From: Mobula hypostoma
Lineage: Eukaryota
Direction of reading: 5' to 3'
NCBI RefSeq assembly: GCF_963921235.1
Contig: NC_086108.1
Coordinates: forward strand, 68,326,001-68,390,000
DNA length: 64,000 nucleotides
Shown: positions 6,965-58,519 of the stretch, one piece after another
Position numbering within the stretch: the stretch's first letter is position 1
Layout of the letters: each line of letters begins with the position of its first letter
Made by a program: the position numbers and the translations under genes
The notes under the pieces: model-generated
Told to the model about the DNA's origin: nothing
The model's input: the letters and a program-made list of their open reading frames with translations, nothing else
Databases searched by the model: none

Positions 6965-7082
6965 AGCACAAAATACTCTGCAGATGCTGGGGTCAAAGCA
7001 AAACGCACAACACGCTGGATGTCGGGCAGCATCTGAGAAAATGAACAGTCAACATTTCGGGCCGAGACCCTTTGTCAGGACT
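6965..7082 (-). mobile_element. Penelope-like terminal repeat fragment with decayed hammerhead
   Basis: Minus strand 7082-7046 reads agtc-ctgacAa-agggtctcggccc-gaaaTgtT-gactg, followed by gatgctgcc...cagcatctgcaga. Confidence 0.8.
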
Positions 7083-7490: not shown

Positions 7491-7639
7491 TGTTGAGAGA
7501 CTTAGGGTGACTTAAAAACTAACTTAAAGACTTTAAGGGACTTCAACTTCAAGTGCTGAAATTTATAAGAAAATTAGTACAGGGCAACATCTGTTTATTA
7601 AGTTTGAGAATAAAAGAAAATATCCTTATTATTCATAAA

Positions 7640-8120
7640 GAGAAGAGACTCGGCAGATGTTGGAAACCCTGAACAATCTATACAAAGTGCTGCAGGAACT
7701 CAGTGTGTCACACAGCATCTATGGAAGCAAATAAACAGTTGATATTTCAGGATGAGGCCCTGTATCAGGACTAAAAAGAAAAGGGGAAAAAAACAGAATA
7801 AGGTAGCTAGGGGAGGGGAAGCAGTACAAGCTGGCAAGTGATAGGTGTAAACAGGTGAGGGGAAAGGTGGGTAGGGGAGGAGGGGAATGAAGTAAGAAGC
7901 TAAATGGTGACAGGTAGAAGAGATAAAAACCAGAAGACAGTGATAGAGGACAGTGGGCCATGGAAGAAAGGGAAGGAAGAGGGACACTAGAGGGAGGTGA
8001 TGGGACGGGGAGAAGAGGTAAGAGGGCAACCAGAATTGGAAATGGGAAAAAAGACAAGGTGGGAGAGGGGAGGAATTATAGGAAGTTAGAGAAATTGATA
8101 TTCATGCCATCAGGTTGGAG
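7640..8120 (-). mobile_element. Penelope-like 3' end/terminal repeat with decayed hammerhead (7736-7772)
   Basis: Ends in ttcatgccatcaggttggag, as at 43751-43769; purine-rich 3' region; cagttgatatttcagg...atcaggact. Confidence 0.8.
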
Positions 8121-20444: not shown

Positions 20445-20785
20445 TTCTCCTTCTGGTAAAAAAAAATTCTTCCCCCTTCCCTTTTCTTCTATTCCCCACT
20501 CTGACTACTTACATCTTCTCAGCTGCATCCTCCTCCTTCTCTTTATCCTCTCCTCTCCTATTAAATTCCTTAATATCTAGCCCTTTACCTTTCCCACCCA
20601 CCTGACTTCACCTATCACCACACCCGGCTATCCTTCTTCCCTCCCCCTATCTTTTCATTCTGGCATTTTCCCTCTTCCTTTCAATCCTAAAGAAGGATCT
20701 CAGCCTGAAACATTGACTGTTCATTCATTTCCATGGATGCTGCCTGACCTGAAAATTTCCTTTAGCATTTTGTGTATGTTGTTTT
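20445..20785 (+). mobile_element. Penelope-like terminal repeat with decayed hammerhead (20683-20719)
   Basis: Pyrimidine-rich tract followed by aatc-ctaaaga-aggatctcagcct-gaaacatt-gactg and gatgctgcctgacctg. Confidence 0.75.
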
Positions 20786-20994
20786 GCATAATTTTTATAA
20801 AATCAAGAAGCACTCAATTTTACCAAATGACATTAACAACTACAAAAAAACAAAAACAATGCTGAAAAATTCAAGCCCTAACTATACAGTGCTCTGCATT
20901 GTAAAGTTTCCTTTTATCTCGGATACTTGGCCTCAACTATTATGGACATCAGACAATAATCTAATGCACATTGAAAATGAGCACTAACCCAGTA

Positions 20995-34100: not shown

Positions 34101-34760
34101 TAGAGAGAAGGTGCTTGGGAAGCTAAATGGACTAAGAATAGATAAGTCGCCTGGACCAGATGAGGTGCACCCATGGGTTCTGAAGGAGGTGGCTTTGGAG
34201 ATTGTGGAGGCATTGGAAATGATCTTCCAGGAATCAATAGACTCTGGCATGGTTCTGGAGGACTGGAAAGTCACAAATGTAGTTCCACTGTTTAAGGCAG
34301 GAGGGAGACAGCAAAAAGAAAATTACAGACCTACTAGTCTGACATCAGTAGTTGGAAAGTTATTGGAGTCAATCCTCAAGGACAAAGTTACGAAATACCT
34401 CTAGGTACATGACAAGATAGGCCCAAGCCAGCATGGTTTTCATGAAGGGAAGATCCTGCCTCACCAACCGATTGGAATTTTTTGATGTAATCTCAAATAA
34501 TATTGATAAGAGAGAGGCTGTGGATGTTGTGTATTTGGATTTTCAAAAGGCCTTCAACAAGGTGCCGCATAAGAGGCTGCTTAGTAAGTTGAGAGCCTGT
34601 GGAATTACAGGAAAGATATTGGAATGGGTGGAGCATTGGCTGATAGGCAGAAAGCAAAGGGTGGGAATAAAGGGATCCTATTCTGATAGCTTACCAGTTA
34701 CTAGTGGTGTTCCGCAGGGGTCAGTGTTGGGGCCACTCCTTTTTGCAATGTATATCGATG

Positions 34761-34893
34761 CTTTCAAATCCCTTACTCACTCTTCCTTCAGTTAGTCCTG
34801 ACGAAGGGTCTCGGCCTGAAACGTCGACTGCGCCTCTTCCTATAGATGCTGCCTGGCCTGCTGCATTCACCAGCAACTTTGATGTATGTTGTT
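34761..34893 (+). mobile_element. 133-bp Penelope terminal-repeat insertion carrying a hammerhead ribozyme
   Basis: Near-identical to 45951-46083; 6-bp TSD tcgatg (34755-60, 34894-99); removing it restores the CR1 frame FAMYIDDLDYG. Confidence 0.9.
34793..34830 (+). ncRNA. Minimal type I hammerhead ribozyme motif (PLE-associated)
   Basis: tagtc-CTGACGA-agggtctcggcct-GAAAC-GTC-gactg: helix I tagtc/gactg, intact CUGANGA and GAAA boxes, short helix II, palindromic ACGT in place of helix III, predicted cut after GUC at 34825. Confidence 0.85.
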
Positions 34894-36944
34894 TCGATGA
34901 TTTAGATTATGGATTAAATGGTTTTGTGGCTAAGTTTGCGGATGACACCAAGATAGGTGGAGGAGCAGGAAGTGTTGAAGGAACGGAAAGGTTGCAGAGA
35001 GACTTGGTCAGTTTAGGAGAGTGGGCAAAGAAATGGCAGATGAGATACAATGTTGAGAAATGTACGGTTGTACATTTTGGAAACAAATAATAGGGGAGAT
35101 TATTATTTAGAAGGGGAGAAAATTCAAAAATCGGAAGTGCAAAGAGACTTGGGGGTCCTCGTGCAGGATACCCTAAAGGTTACCCACCAAGTTGGATCGG
35201 CAGTAAGGAAAACGAATGCTATGTTGGCATTCATTTCAAGAGGAATAGTGTATAAGAGTAAGGAGGTGTTGATGAGGCTCTATGGGGCACTGGTGAGACC
35301 TCATTTGGAATACTGTGTGCAGTTTTGGGCCCCCTATCTTAGAAGGGATTTTCTGATGTTGGAGAGAGTTCAGAGAAGATTTATGAGGATGATTCCTGGA
35401 ATGCAGGGGCTAACATATGAGGACCGTTTGTCGGCTCTTGGACTGTATTCATTAGAGTATAGAAGAATGAGAGGGGATCTCGTAGAAACATTTCGAATGT
35501 TGAAAGGGTTGGACAGAGTAGATGTGGAAAGGCTGTTTCCCTTGGTGGGTGAGTCCAGGACAAGAGGCCACAGTCTTAGAATTAGAGGGTACCCATTTAA
35601 AACTGAGATAAGGAGAAATTTTTTGAGCCAGAGGGTTGTGGATTTATGGAATTCGTTGCCACATACAGCTGTGGAGGCCCGATTATTGAGGGTGTTTAAG
35701 GAGGAGATTGATAGGTATCTAATTAGTCAGGGTATCAAGGGATATGGGGGAAAAAGCCGGAAATTGGAACTAGATGGGAAAATAGTTTAGCTTATGGTGG
35801 AGTGGCGGAGCAGACTCGATGGGCCAAATGGCCTACTTCTGCTCCTTTGTCTTGTGATTTTGTGAAAAGTGAAATAAAAGCATGTTACAGAGTTACAGCT
35901 AATAGTCTGGGGAAAAATTTGCTAGTTCAGCATGACCATAGTAACAAGGGTGCTGGATTAGCTGTTTTGTTATAATCTGCCTTGTGGGTGTTTATGCCTT
36001 TTAAGTAGCTTTCCGAAATAATGACATTTTTGCCATACAAAAGCAACAATTCAATCAATTTAGCATCGTATTTCACCATGATAAATTTAGACACAACTTG
36101 AATTCACATAATTCCAAAATATTGCACCATTTATTCTAGTAAATGTGCGTAAGCTATTACAGTTGCTTTGCAGAAAGGAGGCCAGTAAAAAGACAACTGT
36201 CATACTTATTTCAGATAGAATTATTATTTCAAATCAATTTCCAAAATAGCAAAATTTATCTCTTGAAACATCTATTTTATGAAGAACACCTGAATGCAAG
36301 AAAATCAATATACTCAGTTGTTGAAATTGTTATAATTTTCAGAACTTCGTTAAAGGATAAGTGATTTCAGAGAAGTCTCAAATACTTGGAACAACATGGG
36401 GAAATATTGAATATACAACAGTGCTCAGAATTCAGAAGAACATAGTGGAGGTGCTGTTCTGCTGAACCAAACTCTACCTTGACAAGCGAGTAAGATTTCA
36501 AGCAACTTGAAAATAATTCAACAAAAAATCTCCCTGAAAAACCCAGATAATTAATAACTTTACATAATAATTAACATTTGAACAATCGCTCAATTTGGTA
36601 AGGTTAAAATAGATTTGTGCCTAACAATCAAAATATGTAAGCAACTTTTAAAGTATGTAACATGCTTATTGAAAATGCCTAACTTACTAGCTCATCATAC
36701 TGCATCACCTGATTTTGCAAGTTTCTGTTCAAGTGGCATGTTCTGCTATTAATTTTCAGCTCCACAGTATGTTTGAGTATTACCCATTTTTGGCTCTATA
36801 GATTTACAGTCAATGAGTATTAGAGTACTGCCACTGTGTTCTATACTGTTGAGTTTTTCCAAACCAATTAATTGATAGCTTGTTTGATGCACAATGTTGT
36901 TCATGTACCATTACATTAAATGATATGAAGAACTGACTAAAATA

Positions 36945-41950: not shown

Positions 41951-43390
41951 AATTGAGGCACAGCATAGAGGATAATGATCAACAATATTCAATCTTTAGT
42001 TTTATCCATTTTAAAACATGCAGTTATGCGGCACAGATCACTGGGAGACGTTGGTTTGTGAGTAGCAGGAGAGAGATTTGAAAAGAAATGAGCAGGGGCA
42101 ATTAAAACATTCTGCATGCCACAGATCGCCTGATAATTAGGAACTTGGCATGAGCTAATTAAAAAAAAGTCAGTTTTAAGTGGAGTAGCCATTGTCGGAG
42201 TGACCATTGTTTGAGTGGGCCACTGTTATAGAGTTAAGTTGAGGCTTCAGCTCAGAGAATCTTCAGCAAGGAGAGGTGTAAGCTGTAGGTAGATTTACAG
42301 GTGTCCCCCGCTTTTTGATCGTTCGCTTTACGACACCTTGCTGTTACAAAAGACCTAAATTAGTGACCTGTTTTCGCTAACAGAAGGTGTTTTCACTGTT
42401 ACGAAAAAAGGCAGCGCGTGCCCCGAGCAGCCACTCCTCCCCCAGAACTGCATTCTAGCCGGCATTGCTTAAACACGTGCCTGTGAGCATCTGTGCTTTA
42501 TGTCGATTTATTTGGAGCATCTGTTTGCAAGATGAGTTCTAAGGTATCGGAAAAGCCTAAAAGAGCTCGTAAGTGTGTTACACTTAGCGTAAAACTAGAC
42601 GTAATTAAGCGTTTTGATCGTGGTGAATGAAGTAAGGACGAAGTGAGTTTGGCTTGTGGAAGTTGACGAAGATGATGTTGAAGAGGTTTTGGCATCCCAT
42701 GACCAAGAACTGATAGATGAAGAGCTGATGCAGTTGGAAGAGGAAAAGATAGCAATTGAAACTGAATGCAGTAGCGAACGGACCGAAAGTGAAGTCGTCC
42801 AGGAACTGAATATGAAGCAACTGTGTGAGGTTTTCGCTGTAATGATTGCAGAAAAGTACGACTTTAATTTTGAAAGGGTATGTAGGTTTAGGACATATTT
42901 GCATGATGGTTTGAGTGCTTACAAAGAACTGTATGATAGAAAAATGCGCAAGGCTAAGCAGTCAAGCATACTGTCATTTTTCAAGCCTTCCACATCAGCC
43001 ACAGCAGGCGATGAACCTCGACCTTCGATATCAAGGCAGGCAGACATAGAAGATGACCTGCCTGTCCTGATGGAAACAGACGACGATGAGGTGACACCCC
43101 AGTGTCCCACCACCCCAACCTCTGGGCCGCGGACCGATACATTGCCGCGGAGAATGCAACGGTAGCCGGGACACACCCAGCACATCTTCAAGAAAAAAGC
43201 CGAAATAAACAAGCTAATTAATTAAGTGCCGCCCGGCACGTAAATATCGCAGATCAGAGGCAATTGCCGATTGCGTCGCCTCTGATCTGGGCGGACATTT
43301 ACATGCCGGGCGGCACCTAATTAATTAGCTTGTTTATTTCAAAGTTGCTGGTGAATGCAGCAGGCCAGGCAGCATCTGTAGGAAGAGGTG

Positions 43391-43428
43391 CAGTCGACGT
43401 TTCAGGCCGAGACCCTTCGTCAGGACTA
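43391..43428 (-). ncRNA. Minimal type I hammerhead ribozyme motif
   Basis: Exact reverse complement of 34793-34830. Confidence 0.85.
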
Positions 43429-45982
43429 ACTGAAGGAAGAGTGAGTAAGGGATTTGAAAGTTGGAGGGGGAGGGGGAGATCCAAAATAATAGGAAAAGAC
43501 AGGAGGGGGAGGGATAGAGCCAAGAGCTGGGCAGGTGATAGGCAAAAGGGGATACGAGAGGATCATGGGACAGGAGGTCTGGGAAGAAAGACAAGGAGGG
43601 GGGCGGGACCCAGAGGATGGGCAAGAGGTATATTCAGAGGGACAGAGGGAGAAAAAGGAGAGTGAGAGAAAGAATGTGTGCATAAAAGTAAATAACAGAT
43701 GGGGTACGAGGGGGAGGTGGGGCCTTAGCGGAAGTTAGAGAGGTCGATGTTCATGCCATCAGGTTGGAGGCTACCCAGACGGAATATAAGGTGTTGTTCC
43801 TCCAACCTGAGTGTGGCTTCATCTTTACAGTAGAGGAAGGCCGTGGATAGACATGTCAGAATGGGAATGGGATGTGGAATTAAAATGTGTGGCCACTGGG
43901 AGATCCTGCTTTCTCTGGCGGACAGAGCGTAGATGTTCAGCAAAGTGGTCTCCCAGTCTGCGTTTGGTCTCGCCAATATATAAAAGGCCACATCGGGAGC
44001 ACCGGACGCAGTATATCACCCCAGTCGACTCACAGGTGAAGTGTTGCCTCACCTGGAAGGACTGTTTGGGGCCGTGAATGGTGGTAAGGGAGGAAGTGTA
44101 AGGGCATGTGTAGCACTTGTTCTGCTTACACAGATAAGTGCCAGGAGGGAGATCAGTGGGGAGGGATGGGGGGGACGAATGGACAAGGGAGTTGCGTAGG
44201 GAGCGATCCCTGCGGAATGCAGGGGGGGGGGAGGGAAAGATGTGCTTAGTGGTGGGATCCCGTTGGAGGTTAACACTTCTCACACTGATTTTAAGTTCCC
44301 TGGCCCCCACCGCTTTATTTTCACCATGGATGTCCAGTCCCTATATACTTCCATCCCCCATCAGGAAGGTCTCAAAGCTCTACGCTTCTTTTTGGATTCC
44401 AGACCTAATTAGTTCCCCTCTACCACCACTCTGCTCTGTCTAGCGGAATTAGTCCTTACTCTTAATAATTTCTCCTTTGGCTCCTCCTACTTCCTCCAAA
44501 CTAAAGGTGTAGCTATGGGCACCCGTATGGGTCCTAGCTATGCCTGCCTTTTTGTTGGCTTTGTGGAACAATCTATGTTCCGTGCCTATTCTGGTATCTG
44601 TCCCCCACTTTTCCTTCGCTACATCGATGACTGCATTGGCGCTGCTTCCTGCACGCATGCTGAGCTCGTTGACTTTATTATCTTTGCCTCCAACTTTCAC
44701 CCTGCCCTCAAGTTTACCTGGTCCATTTCCGACACCACCCTCCCCTTTCTAGATCTTTCTGTCTCTGTCTCTGGAGACAGTTGATCCACTGATGTCTACT
44801 ATAAGCCTACTGACTCTCACAGCTATCTGGACTATTCCTCTTCTCACCCTGTCTCTTGCAAAAACGCCATCCCCTTCTCGCAATTCCTCCGTCTCCGCCG
44901 CATCTGCTCAGGATGAGGCTTTTCATTCTAGGACGAGGGAGATGTCTTCCTTTTTTAAAGAAAGGGGCTTCCCTTCCTCCACTATCAACTCTGCTCTTAA
45001 ACGCATTCTCCCCCATTTCACGTACATCTGCTCTCACTCCATCCTCCCGCCACCCCACTAGGAATAGGGTTCCCCTGGTCCTCACCTACCACCCCACCAG
45101 CCTCCGGGTCCAACATATTATTCTCCGTAACTTCCGCCACCTCCAACGGGATCCCACCGCTAAGCACATCTTTCCCTCCCCCCCTCTCTCTGCATTCCGC
45201 AGGGATCGCTCCCTACGCAACTCCCTTGTCCATTCGTCCCCCCCATCCCTCCCCACTGATCTCCCTCCTGGCACTTATCCGTGTAAGCGGAACAAGTGCT
45301 ACACATGCCCTTACACTTCCTCCCTTACCACCATTCAGGGCCCCAAACAGTCCTTCCAGGTGAGGCAACACTTCACATGTGAGTCGACTGGGGTGATATA
45401 CTGCGTCCGGTGCTCCCGATGTGGCCTCATATATTGGCGAGACCCGACGCAGACTGGGAGACCACTTTGCTGAACATCTACACTCTGTCCGCCAGAGAAA
45501 GCAGGATCTCCCAGTGGCCACACATTTTAATTCCACATCCCATTCCCATTCTGACATGTCTATCCACGGCCTCCTCTACTGTAAAGATGAAGCCACACTC
45601 AGGTTGGAGGAACAACACCTTATATTCCGTCTGGGTAGCCTCCAACCTGATGGCATGAACATTGACTTCTTTAACTTCCGCTAGGCCCCACCTCCCCCTC
45701 GTACCCCATCTGGTTATTTATTTTTATGCACACATTCTTTCTCTCACTCTCCTTTTTCTCCCTCTGTCCCTCTGAATATACCTCTTGCCCATCCTCTGGG
45801 TTCCCCCCCCCCCACCTTGTCTTTCTTCCGGAACCTCCTGTCCCATGATCCTCTTGTATCCCCTTTAGCCTATCACCTGTCCAGCTCTCGGCTCCATCCC
45901 TCCCCCTCCTGTCTTCTCCTATCATTTTGCATCTCCCCCTCCCCCTCCAGCTTTCAAATCCCTTACTCACTCTTCCTTCAGT

Positions 45983-46020
45983 TAGTCCTGACGAAGGGTC
46001 TCGGCCTGAAACGTCGACTG
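45983..46020 (+). ncRNA. Minimal type I hammerhead ribozyme motif
   Basis: tagtcCTGACGAagggtctcggcctGAAACGTCgactg, identical to 34793-34830, downstream of the GIY-YIG stop. Confidence 0.85.
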
Positions 46021-48137
46021 CACCTCTTCCTATAGATGCTGCTTGGCCTGCTGCATTCACCAGCAACTTTGATGTGTGTTGCTTGAATTTCCAGCATCTG
46101 CAGAATTCCTGTTGTTAGCTTGTTTATTTCGGCTTTTTTCTTAAAGACGTGCTGGGTGCATCCCGGCTACCGTTGCACTGCTACATTCTTCGTGGATCGG
46201 TATCAGTTCACTGCCTGGAGGTTGGGGACCACTGCACCACCCCATCCTCCGACGACTCAGCCTAACACACCATCATCAGTGTGCTCGGCGCTGTCTTCCC
46301 GATTCCGGTAAGTGATACTACACTGTACATACATTATTTCTACTTTATATAGGCTGTTTATTTTTATGCGTTATTTGGTATGATTTGGCAGCTTCATAGC
46401 TTAAAGGTTACTGGAGAGAGTGTTTCTGCCGAGAGCGCTTGCGTGAGACTTTCGCTACGGTGGACAGTGCTGCAATGATATAGAAAAGTATTTCTACTTT
46501 ATATAGGCTGTGTATTTATCATATCATATCATTCTTGCTTTTACTATATGTTACTGTTATTTTAGGTTTTATGTGTTATTTGGCATGATTTGGTAGGTTA
46601 TTTTTTGGGTCTGTGAACGCTCACAAATTTTTTCCATATAAATAAATGGTAATTGTTTCTTCACTTTACGACATTCCGGCTTACGAACCGTTTCATAGGA
46701 ACGCTCTACCTTAAGATGGCAGAGGAAACCTGTAACTCTCTTTATTTCTTATTGCACAGTTAGAGCAGTGGAAATGCCAGGCAGGTTAGGGGAATGAGTC
46801 TCTTGTGTTATGTGGGAGGGTAGGGAGACCTCCAATGTCCATGACTACTGCACCTACCCCTACAAGAAGCTGCAACTTTTTATAGACTGTGTTAAGAAAT
46901 AGGCACTGGAGCTGGATGAACTCCGGATCATTTGGAATGCTGAGGGGTTGATTGACAGGTGATTTAGGGAGGTAGTTACACGGAAGGTGCAAGACGCAGA
47001 TAACTGAATGACCATCAGAAGGGAGAAAGGGGATAGGCAGACAGTACAGGGTAACCCTGTGGTTGCTTCCCCTCGATAACAGGTTTGGATATTATTGGAG
47101 AGGGTGACCTATCAGAGGAAAGCCAGAGCATTCTGGTCTCTGGCATGGGTCTGGTTCTATGGCTTAGAAGGGAAGGGGAGAAGAGGTGGGCTATAGTGAT
47201 AGGTGATTCAATAGTTAAAGAAATAGACAGGAGATTCTGTAGAAGAGAACAAGATTCCCAGATGGTATGTTGCCTCCCGGGTGCTAGAGTGAGGGACATC
47301 TTGGATGTGAGAGATGAGCAACCAGGGATCGTGGTCTATTTCAGTACCAATGTCATGGGTAGGAAAGGTGACGAGGTCCTGCAGAGTGAGTTCGGGGGAC
47401 TCAGTACAGGACCTCAAGGGTTGGGATTTCAGGATTGCTAACCCTGCCACTTGCTAGTGGGGCCAGAAATAGGAAGATAATACTGTTTAACAAATGGCTA
47501 AGGTGATGGTGCAGGCGGAAGAACTTCAGATTTTTAGATCATTCGGCATTCCTCCAGGGAATGTGAGACCTCTGCCTATGGGACAATTTGCACCGGAATT
47601 GATATCTTTGTGGAAATATTGCTGTTGCTGTACACAGGGGTTTAAACAAGAGTTGCAGGGGATGCTGCCCAAGCATAATAGTGAAGTGATTGTGGGGAAA
47701 GATGTTCAGCCTATATACAATGTCAGGAATAGAAAGGTTGAGCATGCTGGGATCAATGTTCTGAATTGTGTACATTTCAATGCAAAGAGTATTGTAGGAA
47801 TTGAGGATGAGCATAGGGCATGGATAAACACATGGAATTATGACATCGTAGTATTACTGAGATTTGGTAACTGGAGGGGCAGGATGTGCAACTCGGTATT
47901 CCAGGGTTCCATTGCTTTGGACTTGATAGAGTAGGCCGGGTGGCATTACTAGTTTGGAAATATATCACAACAGTGCTCAAACAGGATACTTTATAGAGCA
48001 CTCAGTAGTCAATGGGATTTAGGGAAGCGAATTTGTAGAGATTGAGACCATTCCAAGAACAATAAGGTTGTGATAGTAAGTGATTTTAACTTTCCTTATA
48101 TTGACTGAAAACTCCCATGCTGTAAAGGAGCTGGAAA

Positions 48138-49526: not shown

Positions 49527-49590
49527 CCCATAGATGCTCCCTGGCCTGCTGGGTTCCTCCAGCATTTTGTGTGTGTTGCTTGGATTTTCT
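49527..49590 (+). mobile_element. PLE terminal-repeat tail fragment
   Basis: catagatgctccctggcctgctgggttcctccagcattttgtgtgtgttgct matches 58416-58464. Confidence 0.7.
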
Positions 49591-51378: not shown

Positions 51379-52930
51379 GTCGATGTTTCAGGTCAAAACT
51401 CTACCTCAGGACTATGAGTAGAGAGAAAATAGCTAGTATAAAGAGGATAGAAGGAGCAGTTAGATGAGGGCTAATAGTGGTTAGTGGATGGGGGGAGGGG
51501 AAGCAGGTGAAAGATGATGGGCAGATCAAGCCAAATGGGGAGAGGAAGGGGTGGAGATGTTTGACAGAGTCACATGGATAATAGATGCAGGCAGACAAAA
51601 ACAAGGGACAGCTGGATAGAGTCCATGGCCATCTCTACTGCGCAACAGACACAGGTGAAGGAGCAATGTGGAGGAAATATTCCATCTTGGTAGTCCCTAA
51701 CCTAATGGCATCAACTTTGATTTCTCTAACTTCCAGTAACTACTTCCCTTTGTTTTCTTTCTTCCCTTCCTTCCCCTTTTGTTTGCTCTCAGTCATATGG
51801 CCTCCACACCCCTTCCTCGTCCTTACCTCCTTCTGTTTCCCCACCTCCTTCACTTTATTCCACTGGCCTCCCCTATCAGATGGTTTTCTTCCTTAGCCCT
51901 TTGCCACTTTCATTACCTCCTGGCTTCAATCCCTTTCAGCTGCCTTCCTCGATCCATTACTCATCCGTTCCCCCCCTCACCTTGACTCACCTATTAACTG
52001 CCAATTTGTAATGCTTCCACTACCTTTTTATTCTGGTATCTGTCATTCTAGTTTCCAGTCTTGATGAAGGGTCTTAGCATGAAATGTCAACTGTTCATTA
52101 CACTTCCTAGTTTCTGCCTGACTTGCTGAGTTCCTTCTGCAATTTGTGGGTATTGAAGCAGGTGGAGCCAGATGCGAGAAGGAGAGAATGAAGGTAGAAA
52201 CTGTTCGGAGGATGATAAGACAGAACATGAAAATTACCAGTGCTGGAATCTGATGAGTAATGAAAATGATAATGGGAACTATTAGAAAAGGGATGAAGAA
52301 CGATGGAACCAGAACCATCTGTGTGAGAAATCTGCAGGAAATGCATCCATGGAACTGGGAGATAGGGACAAGGACATGTAAGGTGGGGCTGGAGGAAGGT
52401 TATGGGGAAAGTGGACAAAAATGGGATGACTGGAGTTGGATTGGAAAGAAAGGATGGAGGGAACACGCCGGAGGTGTGGGTTACCCGAAGTTGTAGGAAT
52501 TGTAAGATTTTGAAGTTGTAGGATTGGGCTGTAGACTACCCAAATATGAGTTGTTATTTCTTCAGTTTTATTTGGGCCTCAGCCTGTCAGTGGAGAAGGC
52601 CGAGGATTAACAAGTCAGTGTGAGAATGGGAAAAAGAATTGAAATACATGCAACTGGAAGCTTAGGATGACCAGTGCAGGTACAATGTAATTTGTTTGGC
52701 AAGTCTACAATTGGTCTTGTTGATATGGAGGAGGCCATGTTGGAAGCGTAGAATGCATTAATAAGGTTGTAACAGGTGCAAGTGAATCTTAGCCTCACCT
52801 GAAAAGACTATTAAGGACACTGGAAGGTGATTATGGAGGAGGTGTAAGAACAAGTGTTCCACTTCCTGTGATTGCAGGGTTAAGGCAGGGAGTGGTGAAT
52901 GGGAAGGGATGAGCAGACCAGAGAATGGTA
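51379..52930. mobile_element. Cluster of decayed PLE 3' ends in both orientations, with decayed hammerheads at 51379-51413 (-) and 52057-52093 (+)
   Basis: agtc-ttgatga-agggtcttagcat-gaaatgtc-aactg; 52500-52900 resembles 43740-44150. Confidence 0.75.
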
Positions 52931-53700: not shown

Positions 53701-54049
53701 AACTGCCTTAAGCTCTATGAGGCCATAAAGTGGGAGGAGTTTAAAGAATGGAACAGAGAGAACTGTGAAAGGGATTGGTTCCTGTCTGCAGTATGATCAG
53801 GGACACAGTCAATGCCTTGTGCCAGGCTTAAGTATGTATTCTCAGAACTGAAAAAGAACATGAAGTGGGAGGGAAGAAACGTAGTCCGTAAAGAAACTTG
53901 TGATGAAAATTGAACTAAAAATGAAAGAATCTGACGATCTGTGGACCAAATAACAAAGCAGAATCTCAAAGCTTTGTCTGCATTAGTAGGGACATAATGC
54001 TCAATTATTTAGAACACTGGTGAAATGACATCTGCATTTAATAATTACA

Positions 54050-54180
54050 AGCACAAGAGATTCCGCAGATGCTAGAAGTCCAGAGTAACACACACAAAAT
54101 GCTGGAGGACCTCGGCAGATCTGGCAGGAATATGGCAAGGAATAAAGAGTCGACATTTAGACTGAGACCCTTCCATCAGT
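54050..54180 (-). mobile_element. PLE terminal-repeat fragment with decayed hammerhead (54148-54180)
   Basis: gcagatgctag...cacacacaaaatgctggagg...agtcgacatttagactgagacccttccatcag. Confidence 0.75.
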
Positions 54181-55688: not shown

Positions 55689-58248
55689 AACTATTTTCCT
55701 ACAACCATCAAGTTCTTGAAACAAACTGCACATCCTTAATTTATTTCTGATTGTGATTTTTTTTTGTCGCCATTGAGTATTGGGAGCAGATTTTTTGAGT
55801 AAAATCAAAAGATGACCAAAATACTGGTTTTTAAAAAGCGAAGTAATGAATACAAAACTAAGCTTGCAATATTTTTTTCAGAGTGTTGTTACTGCAAATA
55901 CCATAAAATGACATTGGTTCACAACAGCCAGATTGATTAGGGATAGACAATGAATGCAGGAATGGGTGAACAAGTATAAATAGTAGCAGTAGTGCTATCA
56001 TTAGTCTGTCGGAGAACCAGTAGAGTTTTCATTGTACAAGAATATGTATTTTCTAAGAGAGGACAACATGGCTTTTAATGAGGACTGATATTTGGAGGCT
56101 GAACCTCTTGAAAGCTGAATATTTACACAAGGAACCCGATCTTCCATGTTTTCCCCTTCTAATGCTGAGACAAACATGGCCTAAGAATAGACTGAAGAAG
56201 TCCTCTTAAATTAATCAGTTATATAACTGTCCACTTGTCAGGTGCACCTACACCCTTCCTCACTTCTGAGAGGCTTTGAGTTGGATTTACATTTGGCTGA
56301 AAACCAGTTGATCACTTTTAGACCTCCAGTACTTGTTTTAGCTTTATACCTTCCCTGTAATATCAGAATGTAAGGGCTGTGGGTCTGCATTTCCAGAGGA
56401 CGTACTCTGAAGAACTTGTGTTAGTTGGTTTTCATGATTAAAGAACAATAAAGCTAAAACTATTGGGCACTTTCTTCCCAATAGGTTTGCTTGCTTTGCT
56501 GAGCATGAAATAGGAAATGAAACACAGGTGCAGCCATCAAGATACCAGTATAAAGTCTGTTTTTGAGGGGTTTCATAATACTCTTGCACATGAAAGCTCT
56601 AGTGATTCGCTAATAGACTGAAAATGACACAGCCACTACTGTTTATTATACTGTAATAAGCACTGCTAAGCAGTACCACAGATGGTGGCACATCAATAAG
56701 TCAGTATTGATTGGATATATTTGCCTTAGGACAGCACCATTTTAAGTTGTTTTTAAATTTCTTTACAGTCTCCAGTTCAAGCAAAAATGAAAAGCTGTGA
56801 TTGAATTCTAAGAAATAATTAATTCCAATAGCAATTTAAAAAAATTTTTTTATTTTCTCTCTCATTAATGGCTTACAAATCTCTTGTATTTGTTTTATGG
56901 TTTGTGCCTTTCTCCAAAACAATTTTATATAGACAGTGTACTCATTTAAAGACCAGTCTTGTCTATATAAGAAACAACCATAAATTTAATAAATTGTACA
57001 AATATGCTGCATTAATATTCCTTAACCAATGACTGAATTGTTCTGTTACTTATTCCTCAGAGTACAAATGTTGAAATTATAATATGAAATTGCCACCCTA
57101 TTACAAGAATTTATAACCCATAGATGTGCAGTCTCTGTGGAGCAGTCAGAAAATAAATTCTGTTTTGCAATTCTGGGTGCAAGTAAAATTCTTTATGCCA
57201 CAAAATGATCAATATGTTTCATTAACTTGGGAAAAGTTAATGAAACCTGAATTGTAACCGGTATTGTATTAGGGCAACAGTGCCTTCTCAAGAATCGCAA
57301 TGTTTCTAAGTTCTGCTCTAGCAACCTGGTTGACCTCAGAATATCTTCATGTACATTGAATATAAAACGGTGAATTTGTCTGCCTGCCTCTCACCATTAT
57401 CTGCTTAACTGGGGCATTGGAACCAAATTGTATTGTTATTGGTGATGTGAGTGCGTGGATTTCCTGTTTGAGGCTATTTAAGGAGGCTGACAAAAATGCA
57501 CAAAACTGGTGATCCCTGTTACAGGGGAGCAGGTAGTGTTCCATAATGGACATCCATGTTACCTGCGCTTGCATTGAGAAATGCAAGTAGAAGAAATATA
57601 AATTAAATGTTTATTTAATTACTGTTTTTCAGATAAATTTCTTGAGAGTAAATTTTTATTACTATACCAGAATTTTTTTGGAAGTAATTTGTGAATTCCA
57701 TAAGGGCAAATTCCTGTTTCCCAAACTGCAATAACTCAGGCTTGTCTGTACCCTCAAGGGCAAGTTATCAGAAGCTTGCTCATTGTAGGAAGATATACCT
57801 TGCTAGGTTATTCTCAGAATTAGTCAATTACAGTTAATTTGTGTTTTTTATTGCTCCAGCATTTCACTTTGTGAATTGTTTTTGAGTGAAGAGAAACAGA
57901 ATATTCAAGAAAGTTGTCTATTAAATATGATACTTAGTGCATGATGATTGTTCAAGTAGAGAAATAAGATCCTTGCAGACCTAGATACAGTCTCCACAAA
58001 AATACTACTTTTGAGTTAATTTGGCAAAATAAACATAATTATTCTGAATTCTGAACTGAGAATAAATTAAAGCTTAATTTAGATTTTCTTTAGCTACCTT
58101 TTGAGAGTTACAGACTTGACTGGAGTAAAAAAAATTTGTACCTTAAATGCCCTCTCTTACCTATAATTGAATGGCGAGTGCTGAAAGATAGAATAAACGC
58201 ACAAAATGCTGGAAACGCTCAGGTCAGGAACAAGAAACAGAGTTAATG

Positions 58249-58464
58249 ACAAACATAAGAAAATCTGCAGATGCTGGAAATCCAAAGCAACACACACAAA
58301 ATGCTGGAGGAACTCCAGGCAGCATCTATGGAAAAGAGTGAACAGTCAACTTTTCAGGCTGAGACCCTTCTTGGATTTGGGTCTCAGCCCGAAATGTCGA
58401 CTATTTACTATTTTCCATAGATGCTGCCTGGCCTGCTGAGTTCCTCCAGTATTTTGTGTTTGTT
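58249..58464. mobile_element. 216-bp fold-back element made of two inverted PLE termini
   Basis: 15-bp TSD gaaacagagttaatg (58234-48, 58465-79); the arms meet at ggctgagaccc-ttcttggattt-gggtctcagcc. Confidence 0.85.
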
Positions 58465-58519
58465 GAAACAGAGTTAATGTTTTATGTTAATGGCTTTTCT
58501 CCAGAACTGAGGAAAAATT

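What the first reader, a model, noticed from the sequence alone, without database searches (positions are those of the whole stretch)
34755..34899. A 133-bp insertion that is little more than a hammerhead ribozyme, with its own TSD
Seen: 34761-34893 is almost identical to the PLE terminus at 45951-46083, is flanked by a 6-bp duplication (tcgatg) and splits a CR1 RT frame at YIDDL. It carries an intact CUGACGA/GAAAC-GUC core. Established: PLE pseudo-LTRs encode minimal hammerheads, and non-autonomous hammerhead retroelements (retrozymes) exist. Inference: this is either an extremely truncated PLE insertion or a member of a discrete ribozyme-centred mini-retroelement family spreading self-cleavage motifs through this genome.
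Basis: partly seen in the sequence, partly recalled or inferred. Interest (0 to 1): 0.75.

Follow-up and report, generated by a model that had tools for sequence, protein, structure and literature searches.

The report
Penelope retrotransposon stub carrying hammerhead motif
This 133-base insert is a real but ordinary clipped end of a very abundant Penelope-type jumping gene that carries a known, predicted self-cutting RNA motif; it is one of tens of thousands of such stubs, likely left when the copying enzyme stopped near the front of that motif, and not a separate mobile ribozyme family.

Summary
Observation confirmed: 131 of 135 bases match the Penelope-like element (PLE) end at 45950-46084, TCGATG is duplicated, the CR1 RT frame is split, and a minimal hammerhead core is present. 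It is a 5'-truncated PLE end, one of at least 70,498. It is not a discrete family: 0 of 170 sampled copies share both ends, and copies sharing its 5' end have mixed 3' ends and structures. Truncation is not random either. 3' ends fall at two fixed sites, the known PLE 'tail'. 39 of 99 5' ends pile up at 45956-45995, just before the hammerhead and not at its cut site. The likely cause is run-off at the RNA's 5' end; the finding's end lies on the shoulder of that peak. The scan found this pile-up before, in this and other genomes. Side result: two distant tandem arrays of a 310-nt hammerhead unit, from different sub-lineages, share a junction that joins a perfect U12-type donor to the AG before the hammerhead. 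They may be copies of a back-spliced circle. No discrete RNA was shown.

The parts
34755..34760 (+). Left copy of the 6-bp target-site duplication (its last base also matches PLE 45950)
   Evidence: empty CR1 paralogues
34761..34893 (+). 5'-truncated PLE terminal (pseudo-LTR) copy, equal to 45951-46083; young (nearest sampled copies differ at 1 of 131 bases)
34770..34791 (+). Pyrimidine tract ending in CAG, directly before the hammerhead; resembles a 3' splice site and overlaps an Inr-like TCAGT (both labels inferred; Inr consensus recalled). The family's 5'-end pile-up maps to 34766-34805
   Evidence: sequence
34794..34829 (+). Minimal type I hammerhead motif: core CUGACGA 34798-34804, stem II 34806-34817, GAAAC 34818-34822, predicted cut after 34825; no stem III loop
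   Evidence: definition in PMC4209133
34887..34894 (+). 3' end at the family's short (tail-less) end, window-equivalent about 46081-46084
34894..34899 (+). Right copy of the target-site duplication
34421..35865 (+). Host CR1-type LINE fragment (RT region to 3' end), with stops and a frameshift independent of the insert
44271..46116 (+). Longer truncated copy of the same PLE: RT, Cys-rich linker, GIY-YIG, 3' region, hammerhead (45984-46019) and tail (about 46084-46116)
43339..44270 (-). Inverted arm of that PLE insertion, with a third hammerhead; ends tail-less at 46072-equivalent. The whole insertion is flanked by a 14-16 bp duplication (43327-43340 / 46117-46130)

Best explanation
The insert is a short, 5'-truncated copy of the hammerhead-bearing end of an endonuclease-bearing Penelope-like element, likely made when the element's own protein cut a decayed CR1 copy, started reverse transcription at the shorter of its two fixed internal start points, and stopped 133 bases later near the likely 5' end of the RNA. 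Shown: identity to the PLE end, the duplication, two fixed 3' ends, and the 5'-end pile-up at a fixed position. Also shown: in full-length copies this same segment lies at the very start of the ORF. Inferred: target-primed internal initiation (by analogy with PMC11167929); that the pile-up marks the RNA's 5' end, so many stubs are run-off copies of the RNA leader; and that this stub, ending 5-45 nt upstream of the peak zone, is such a copy (about even odds against plain random truncation). The lone hammerhead is predicted to be inactive as a monomer and is a passenger; the stub is most likely dead.
For: Abundance: exact 40-nt core 21,399 times, 3' anchor 70,498, mid-ORF word 2,455, tail-to-ORF word 375. 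3' ends: 51 of 99 at 46077-46091, 46 of 99 at the tail end, 2 other, matching the optional 30-40 bp PLE tail and two RT start sites (PMC11167929, PMC8557442). 76 of 78 head-to-head pairs have one short and one tailed arm. 5' ends: 39 of 99 at 45956-45995, 1.54% per base against 0.12% upstream and 0.31% downstream. The excess holds for solo copies (11 of 38, p 1.5e-6) and in an independent set (15 of 71, p 3e-9). It sits at the same place for both 3' classes, so it is fixed by position, not length. Full-length copies have hammerhead plus tail in front of and in frame with the ORF start, and the parent ORF has RT, a Cys-rich linker and GIY-YIG. Of 10 copies that read a short way into the ORF, 8 restart in the pseudo-LTR, 5 of them at 45968-45984. 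Duplications of 8 bp or more in 52 of 109 solo arms (some loci counted twice across sets) against 3 of 400 shuffled pairings.
Against: No RNA 5' end was mapped: the RNA-guess runs are contigs only. The finding's own end lies in a bin only 2-3 times above background (0.35% and 0.21% per base). Upstream pseudo-LTRs of long copies rarely end in the peak (2 of 14 at risk vs 39 of 85, Fisher p 0.038); this fits neither a universal RNA end nor a universal stall without extra assumptions. The pile-up is stronger in inverted arms (2.8%) than in solos (1.1%), so junction microhomology contributes. Arms of one pair are not independent, which inflates the pooled p-values. Both samples come from the first 14 Mb of one contig. 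Both Pfam hits on the parent protein are below curated cut-offs.
Confidence: 0.85

Rival explanations
1. Same PLE origin, but the 5' pile-up is a roadblock and not an RNA end: RT stalls or is resolved at the 45970-45998 hairpin, at the pyrimidine tract and AG (bound splicing factors or a lariat branch), or by annealing of two cDNAs through hammerhead stem complementarity. This stub would then be a stall or a random truncation.
For: The predicted minimum-energy fold has a hairpin over 45970-45998. 20 of 30 junctions at 46016 are inverted joins, many through GACT microhomology. The excess is larger in inverted arms. A cluster of ends at 45965-45972 lies near a branch-like CTTAC (inference).
Against: A hairpin should stop RT at its 3' side (about 45998), where the rate is low (0.29%). 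Solo copies with an abutting duplication also begin at 45979-45985.
Confidence: 0.35
2. The insert belongs to a discrete non-autonomous hammerhead retroelement (retrozyme or SINE-like) with its own transcript.
For: Short stubs of about 100-170 bp are half of solo copies (19 of 38). Animal retrozymes derive from PLE pseudo-LTRs (bioRxiv 10.64898/2026.07.22.740005). Rare tandem hammerhead units of this PLE exist in the genome.
Against: 0 of 99 and 0 of 71 sampled copies match both ends within 3-4 bases. Only 48 places genome-wide show this exact 5' end with four mismatching flank bases, against 171 at 45982. Of the 29 others fetched, 14 are inverted arms, 2 direct repeats and 13 solos split 6 short, 7 tailed. 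The insert has one hammerhead, no tandem unit and no private variants. It lacks the ORF-start region that the related anole protein needs on its template (PMC11167929).
Confidence: 0.05
3. Hammerhead self-cleavage sets the template's 5' end, so short copies are ribozyme products.
For: 412 places have a junction at the cut site.
Against: That pattern is more degenerate (it matches 65 of 100 sample arms against 32 and 22 for the others). Of 30 fetched, 20 are inverted joins, 4 direct or deletion forms and 6 solos, none with a duplication of 6 bp or more. The peak lies 20-60 nt upstream of the cut, and this insert contains the whole motif, so its template was uncut.
Confidence: 0.03

Closest known systems
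Minimal hammerheads in pseudo-LTRs of metazoan PLEs (Cervera and De la Pena 2014, PMC4209133; parts 1-2 of 4 read)
   Same: Type I motif with no stem III loop, palindromic 15.2/16.2, an extra base after A9; thousands of single dispersed motifs ascribed to truncated PLEs; single motif showed no cleavage in vitro.
   Different: Stem II is only 3 bp and closes G-U or A-U in 64 of 75 sampled copies (C allele in 11). The passages read do not map copy ends or treat cartilaginous fish.
EN+ PLE insertions with 5' truncation, inverted arm and 30-40 bp tail (Craig 2021 PMC8557442, Arkhipova 2013 PMC3846280, Schostak 2008 PMC2377424; passages read), Neptune/Nematis-type linker
   Same: RT, Cys-rich linker and C-terminal GIY-YIG; partial tandems; head-to-head arms with a one-sided tail; tail at the ORF start; target duplications.
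   Different: A sharp excess of 5' ends just before the hammerhead was not found in the passages read or in searches. No tree was built, so the clade rests on the linker motif.
Poseidon of Anolis, internal RT initiation (Frangieh 2024, PMC11167929; parts 1-2 of 4 read)
   Same: Two adjacent internal RT start sites bounding the tail, downstream of the hammerhead; cleavage not needed for insertion.
   Different: Different clade; here the evidence is genomic only.
Non-LTR retrozymes of animals (Cervera 2020 PMC7229834, passages; Li 2026 bioRxiv 10.64898/2026.07.22.740005, parts 1-3 of 5, supplements not seen)
   Same: Non-coding, type I hammerhead, PLE-derived, dispersed monomers exist.
   Different: Defined by tandem units with two or more hammerheads and by circular RNA. 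This insert is a single stub with family-typical PLE ends. The rare 310-nt and 262-nt arrays elsewhere in the genome do meet the tandem criterion.

Membership tests
EN+ Penelope-like element (truncated copy) | Parent ORF with RT and C-terminal GIY-YIG | tested here: met
   770-aa open stretch in L171: RVT_1 E 2e-4, GIY-YIG E 0.0025, both below curated cut-offs; motifs visible
EN+ Penelope-like element (truncated copy) | Partial tandem forming pseudo-LTRs; inverted 5' arms | tested here: met
   L168-L170; 51 of 100 arms inverted
EN+ Penelope-like element (truncated copy) | Optional 30-40 bp tail, two 3' ends | tested here: met
   51 and 46 of 99; 76 of 78 pairs one-sided
EN+ Penelope-like element (truncated copy) | Target-site duplication | tested here: met
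   6 bp here; mostly 8-17 bp in the family
Neptune clade | Zn-finger-like linker between RT and EN | tested here: met
   CxxxxCxxC before GIY-YIG; shared with Nematis per PMC8557442
Neptune clade | RT phylogeny | not tested
   no named reference PLE proteins fetched; PDB search empty
Minimal hammerhead | Conserved core and stems I, II; no stem III loop | tested here: met
   closing pair of stem II departs from G-C
Minimal hammerhead | Self-cleavage (as dimer or protein-assisted) | not testable with these tools
   nearest same-strand motif is 11.2 kb away
Non-LTR retrozyme | Tandem units, at least two hammerheads | tested here: not met
   single motif; met only by arrays elsewhere
Non-LTR retrozyme | Discrete unit with shared ends across loci | tested here: not met
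Non-LTR retrozyme | Unit-length linear or circular RNA | tested here: inconclusive
   only contigs of runs guessed to be RNA

The most novel reading that the evidence does not exclude
The 133-bp stub is a run-off copy of the PLE RNA leader, a strong-stop-like product. The same leader is an exon, bounded by the AG before the hammerhead (45981) and a U12-type donor 176 nt past the tail, that can be back-spliced into a 310-nt hammerhead circle which the PLE protein copies by rolling circle. Retrozyme-like tandem arrays would then be born by splicing, not by ribozyme ligation. Support: the same junction occurs 4 times at C2 and twice at C50, each array inside one target duplication, from two sub-lineages that differ at 4 diagnostic bases; the donor is the only RTATCCTT in 3.7 kb of element on either strand. 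Against: only two loci; template-jump junctions cluster in the same zones anyway; a 262-nt junction with no splice signals also recurs at two loci; the acceptor looks U2-type.
Probability: 0.2. Interest if true: 0.65.

Novelty: new member of a known kind. Interest (0 to 1): 0.3.

Why it matters
The insert itself matters little: it is a dead stub in a dead LINE. The family statistics give a testable handle on an open question, how PLEs build pseudo-LTRs and what their hammerheads do. Copy ends point to uncut RNA as template and to a fixed stop just before the motif. If the 310-nt arrays are copies of a back-spliced circle, they would show a concrete route from PLE to retrozyme.

Tried and rejected
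DNA search of the genome with the 133-mer returned nothing because common words are skipped; patterns were used instead. Rfam: no hammerhead family hit. Folding z-scores were uninformative. PDB sequence search with the PLE protein: no hit. Empty-site orthologues: four DNA-type contig runs hold the uninterrupted paralogous CR1 form, but no listed contig bridges either junction, so presence or polymorphism of this insertion is undecided. RNA: four contig runs guessed to be RNA cover the terminus deeply, as expected from tens of thousands of passively transcribed copies. None of the 15 joints shown (46 not shown) ends at the 45981 AG. Loose ends at 45984-45985-equivalent in 3 of 4 runs may be genomic junctions or diverged families; this is no evidence of a discrete RNA. 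A shared upstream exon spliced to 45982: not seen in 30 of 171 loci, but that pattern excluded exon ends in AG. A genome-wide census of ORF-start-to-hammerhead junctions was not obtained; only two junction types were counted. Inverted arms from unrelated RNAs: arms mostly share diagnostic alleles (discordant 5-17% against 28-53% for random pairs, background 1.3%), so usually one source lineage; not pursued. Comparison is only roughly normalised, from sample match rates. One duplicate arm (L105) was dropped from set A (100 to 99). One of the 100 places was not fetched; the 71 independent arms are those beyond the region of set A.

Full report
Observation. The insert is there as described. 34760-34894 matches 45950-46084 at 131 of 135 bases, TCGATG flanks it, and the flanks translate as ...MYID and DDLDY...; both halves hit RVT_1. 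Other CR1 copies in the window run through the site uninterrupted. The hammerhead is the minimal type I form of PMC4209133. My descriptor finds three in the window and none in 100 shuffles. Rfam does not score it, the predicted fold prefers another hairpin, and stem II closes with a non-canonical pair. The insert is young: its nearest sampled relatives differ at 1 of 131 bases, while the host LINE carries stops and a frameshift of its own.

Parent element. The window's longer copy (43339-46116) has an inverted arm, RT and GIY-YIG remnants and a 14-16 bp duplication. Full-length copies show a partial tandem: 5'-truncated upstream copy, then ORF, then terminus. The hammerhead and tail stand directly before, and in frame with, the ORF start. 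An open 770-aa stretch hits RVT_1 and GIY-YIG weakly and has a Cys-rich linker, which points to Neptune or Nematis type (PMC8557442); no tree was made. Exact word counts fall from 70,498 at the 3' end to 2,455 mid-ORF and 375 at the ORF start, so strong 5' truncation is the rule.

I fetched the first 100 3'-anchored places (99 after dropping one duplicate) and 99 of the first 100 core-anchored places, of which 71 lie outside the first set's region. 3' ends fall at two sites: 51 of 99 at 46077-46091 and 46 of 99 at the tail end. The finding uses the short one. 76 of 78 head-to-head pairs combine one of each. This is the PLE tail, explained by two internal RT start sites in PMC11167929. 5' ends are scattered over 1.8 kb, but 39 of 99 fall at 45956-45995: 1.54% per base against 0.12% upstream and 0.31% downstream. 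The excess holds for solos (11 of 38) and in the independent set (15 of 71), and sits at the same place for both 3' classes. It is stronger in inverted arms than in solos.

Not a discrete family. No sampled copy (0 of 99, 0 of 71) shares both ends with the finding. Genome-wide, 48 places have its exact 5' end with four mismatching flank bases, against 171 at 45982. Of the 29 others fetched, 14 are inverted arms, 2 direct repeats and 13 solos with mixed 3' ends. The finding's end lies in a shoulder 2-3 times above background, so it may be a run-off product or a plain truncation. The 412 junctions at the ribozyme cut site come from a looser pattern and are mostly inverted joins (20 of 30); none of the 6 solos has a duplication of 6 bp or more. 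Cleavage therefore does not set the ends, and this insert was copied from uncut RNA.

Mechanism. Shown: origin, duplication, two 3' ends, a position-fixed 5' pile-up, and the segment's place at the ORF start. Inferred: the protein cuts the target and primes internally; priming at the 5'-most copy of the start site in a transcript leaves only 100-170 nt to copy, which gives stubs. Of 10 copies that read 75-313 nt into the ORF, 8 restart in the pseudo-LTR, 5 of them at 45968-45984, as expected if RT reaches an end there and jumps. Against a simple picture: upstream pseudo-LTRs of long copies seldom end in the peak (2 of 14, p 0.038), and a hairpin, a splice-acceptor-like tract and stem microhomology all lie in the zone. 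I put the RNA-end cause at about 0.55 and a roadblock at about 0.35. A lone minimal hammerhead showed no cleavage in PMC4209133, and the nearest same-strand partner here is 11.2 kb away, so 'spreading self-cleavage motifs' is true of the sequence only.

Side result. Among the 375 ORF-start places (100 listed) were tandem arrays. A 310-nt unit (45982 to tail plus about 176 nt) stands 4.1 times inside a 13-bp duplication on C2, and about 1.5 times with two junctions inside a short duplication on C50. These are the only two loci, even with 3 mismatches. They differ at 4 bases that mark different sub-lineages of full-length copies. In intact elements the left side of the junction continues as GTATCCTTT (18 of 28) or ATATCCTTT (9 of 28), with 1 other. 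This is the U12 donor consensus (PMC2846911) and the only such match in 3.7 kb on either strand; the right side follows a pyrimidine tract and CAG. A back-spliced circle copied by rolling circle fits. So do repeated jumps or a ribozyme-made circle: a 262-nt junction without splice signals also recurs, twice at C2 and once at C96. Searches listed no paper on this route (listings only), and scan search 80 found no note holding all the words.

What is known. Minimal hammerheads in PLE ends, single dispersed motifs, truncation, inverted arms and the tail are in print (PMC4209133, PMC11167929, PMC8557442, PMC3846280, PMC2377424). PLE-derived tandem retrozymes, including in one chondrichthyan, are in the 2026 preprint, whose supplements I did not see. 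I found no printed account of the 5' pile-up in searches (listings and the passages named). Earlier scan notes report it for this and other genomes; I reached it before opening them, and they are not independent support.

Not settled. RNA runs were contigs only and show no discrete transcript. The orthologous empty site could not be read. Verdict: a real feature and an ordinary member of a known kind, with a useful family-level regularity; interest 0.3.

Noticed in passing
L320 (G000:C2:157816.5-157817.8 kb) and L326 (G000:C50:58412.5-58412.9 kb): 310-nt tandem hammerhead arrays with an identical junction at a U12-type donor and an AG acceptor, from two sub-lineages, each inside a target duplication; possible back-spliced circle. 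One base alternates between units in the C2 array.
   Followed up: partly
L321 (C2:122542.5 kb), L357 (C96:1979.8 kb), L172: 262-nt unit with a microhomology junction, twice at C2 and once at C96; L172 also repeats its own junction. Hammerhead dimers that could release unit RNAs.
   Followed up: partly
L172-L201, L354: 10 of 30 ORF-start copies read only 75-313 nt into the ORF (median about 163) before switching; close to the 172 nt of ORF that the anole PLE needs on its template.
   Followed up: partly
set A inverted pairs: The two arms of a head-to-head pair often stop at nearly the same position, even far upstream (e.g. 45483/45483, 44942/44926).
   Followed up: no
window 7037-7082, 7630-7760, 20690-20787, 49528-49587, 52069-52161, 54042-54173, 58244-58471: Older, 70-85% similar PLE-terminus stubs, one a head-to-head pair (58244-58471); probably related families.
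   Followed up: no
window 43113-43340 and 46117-46227: The long PLE sits inside a small element with inverted repeats (43202-43248 / 43294-43340; 43155-43217 / 46115-46177), next to a decayed transposase-like stretch at about 42500-43090 (label from recall).
   Followed up: no
window 46076: A/G variant makes the in-frame start ATG or GTG just before the short 3' end, so the tail would encode the protein's first residues.
   Followed up: no
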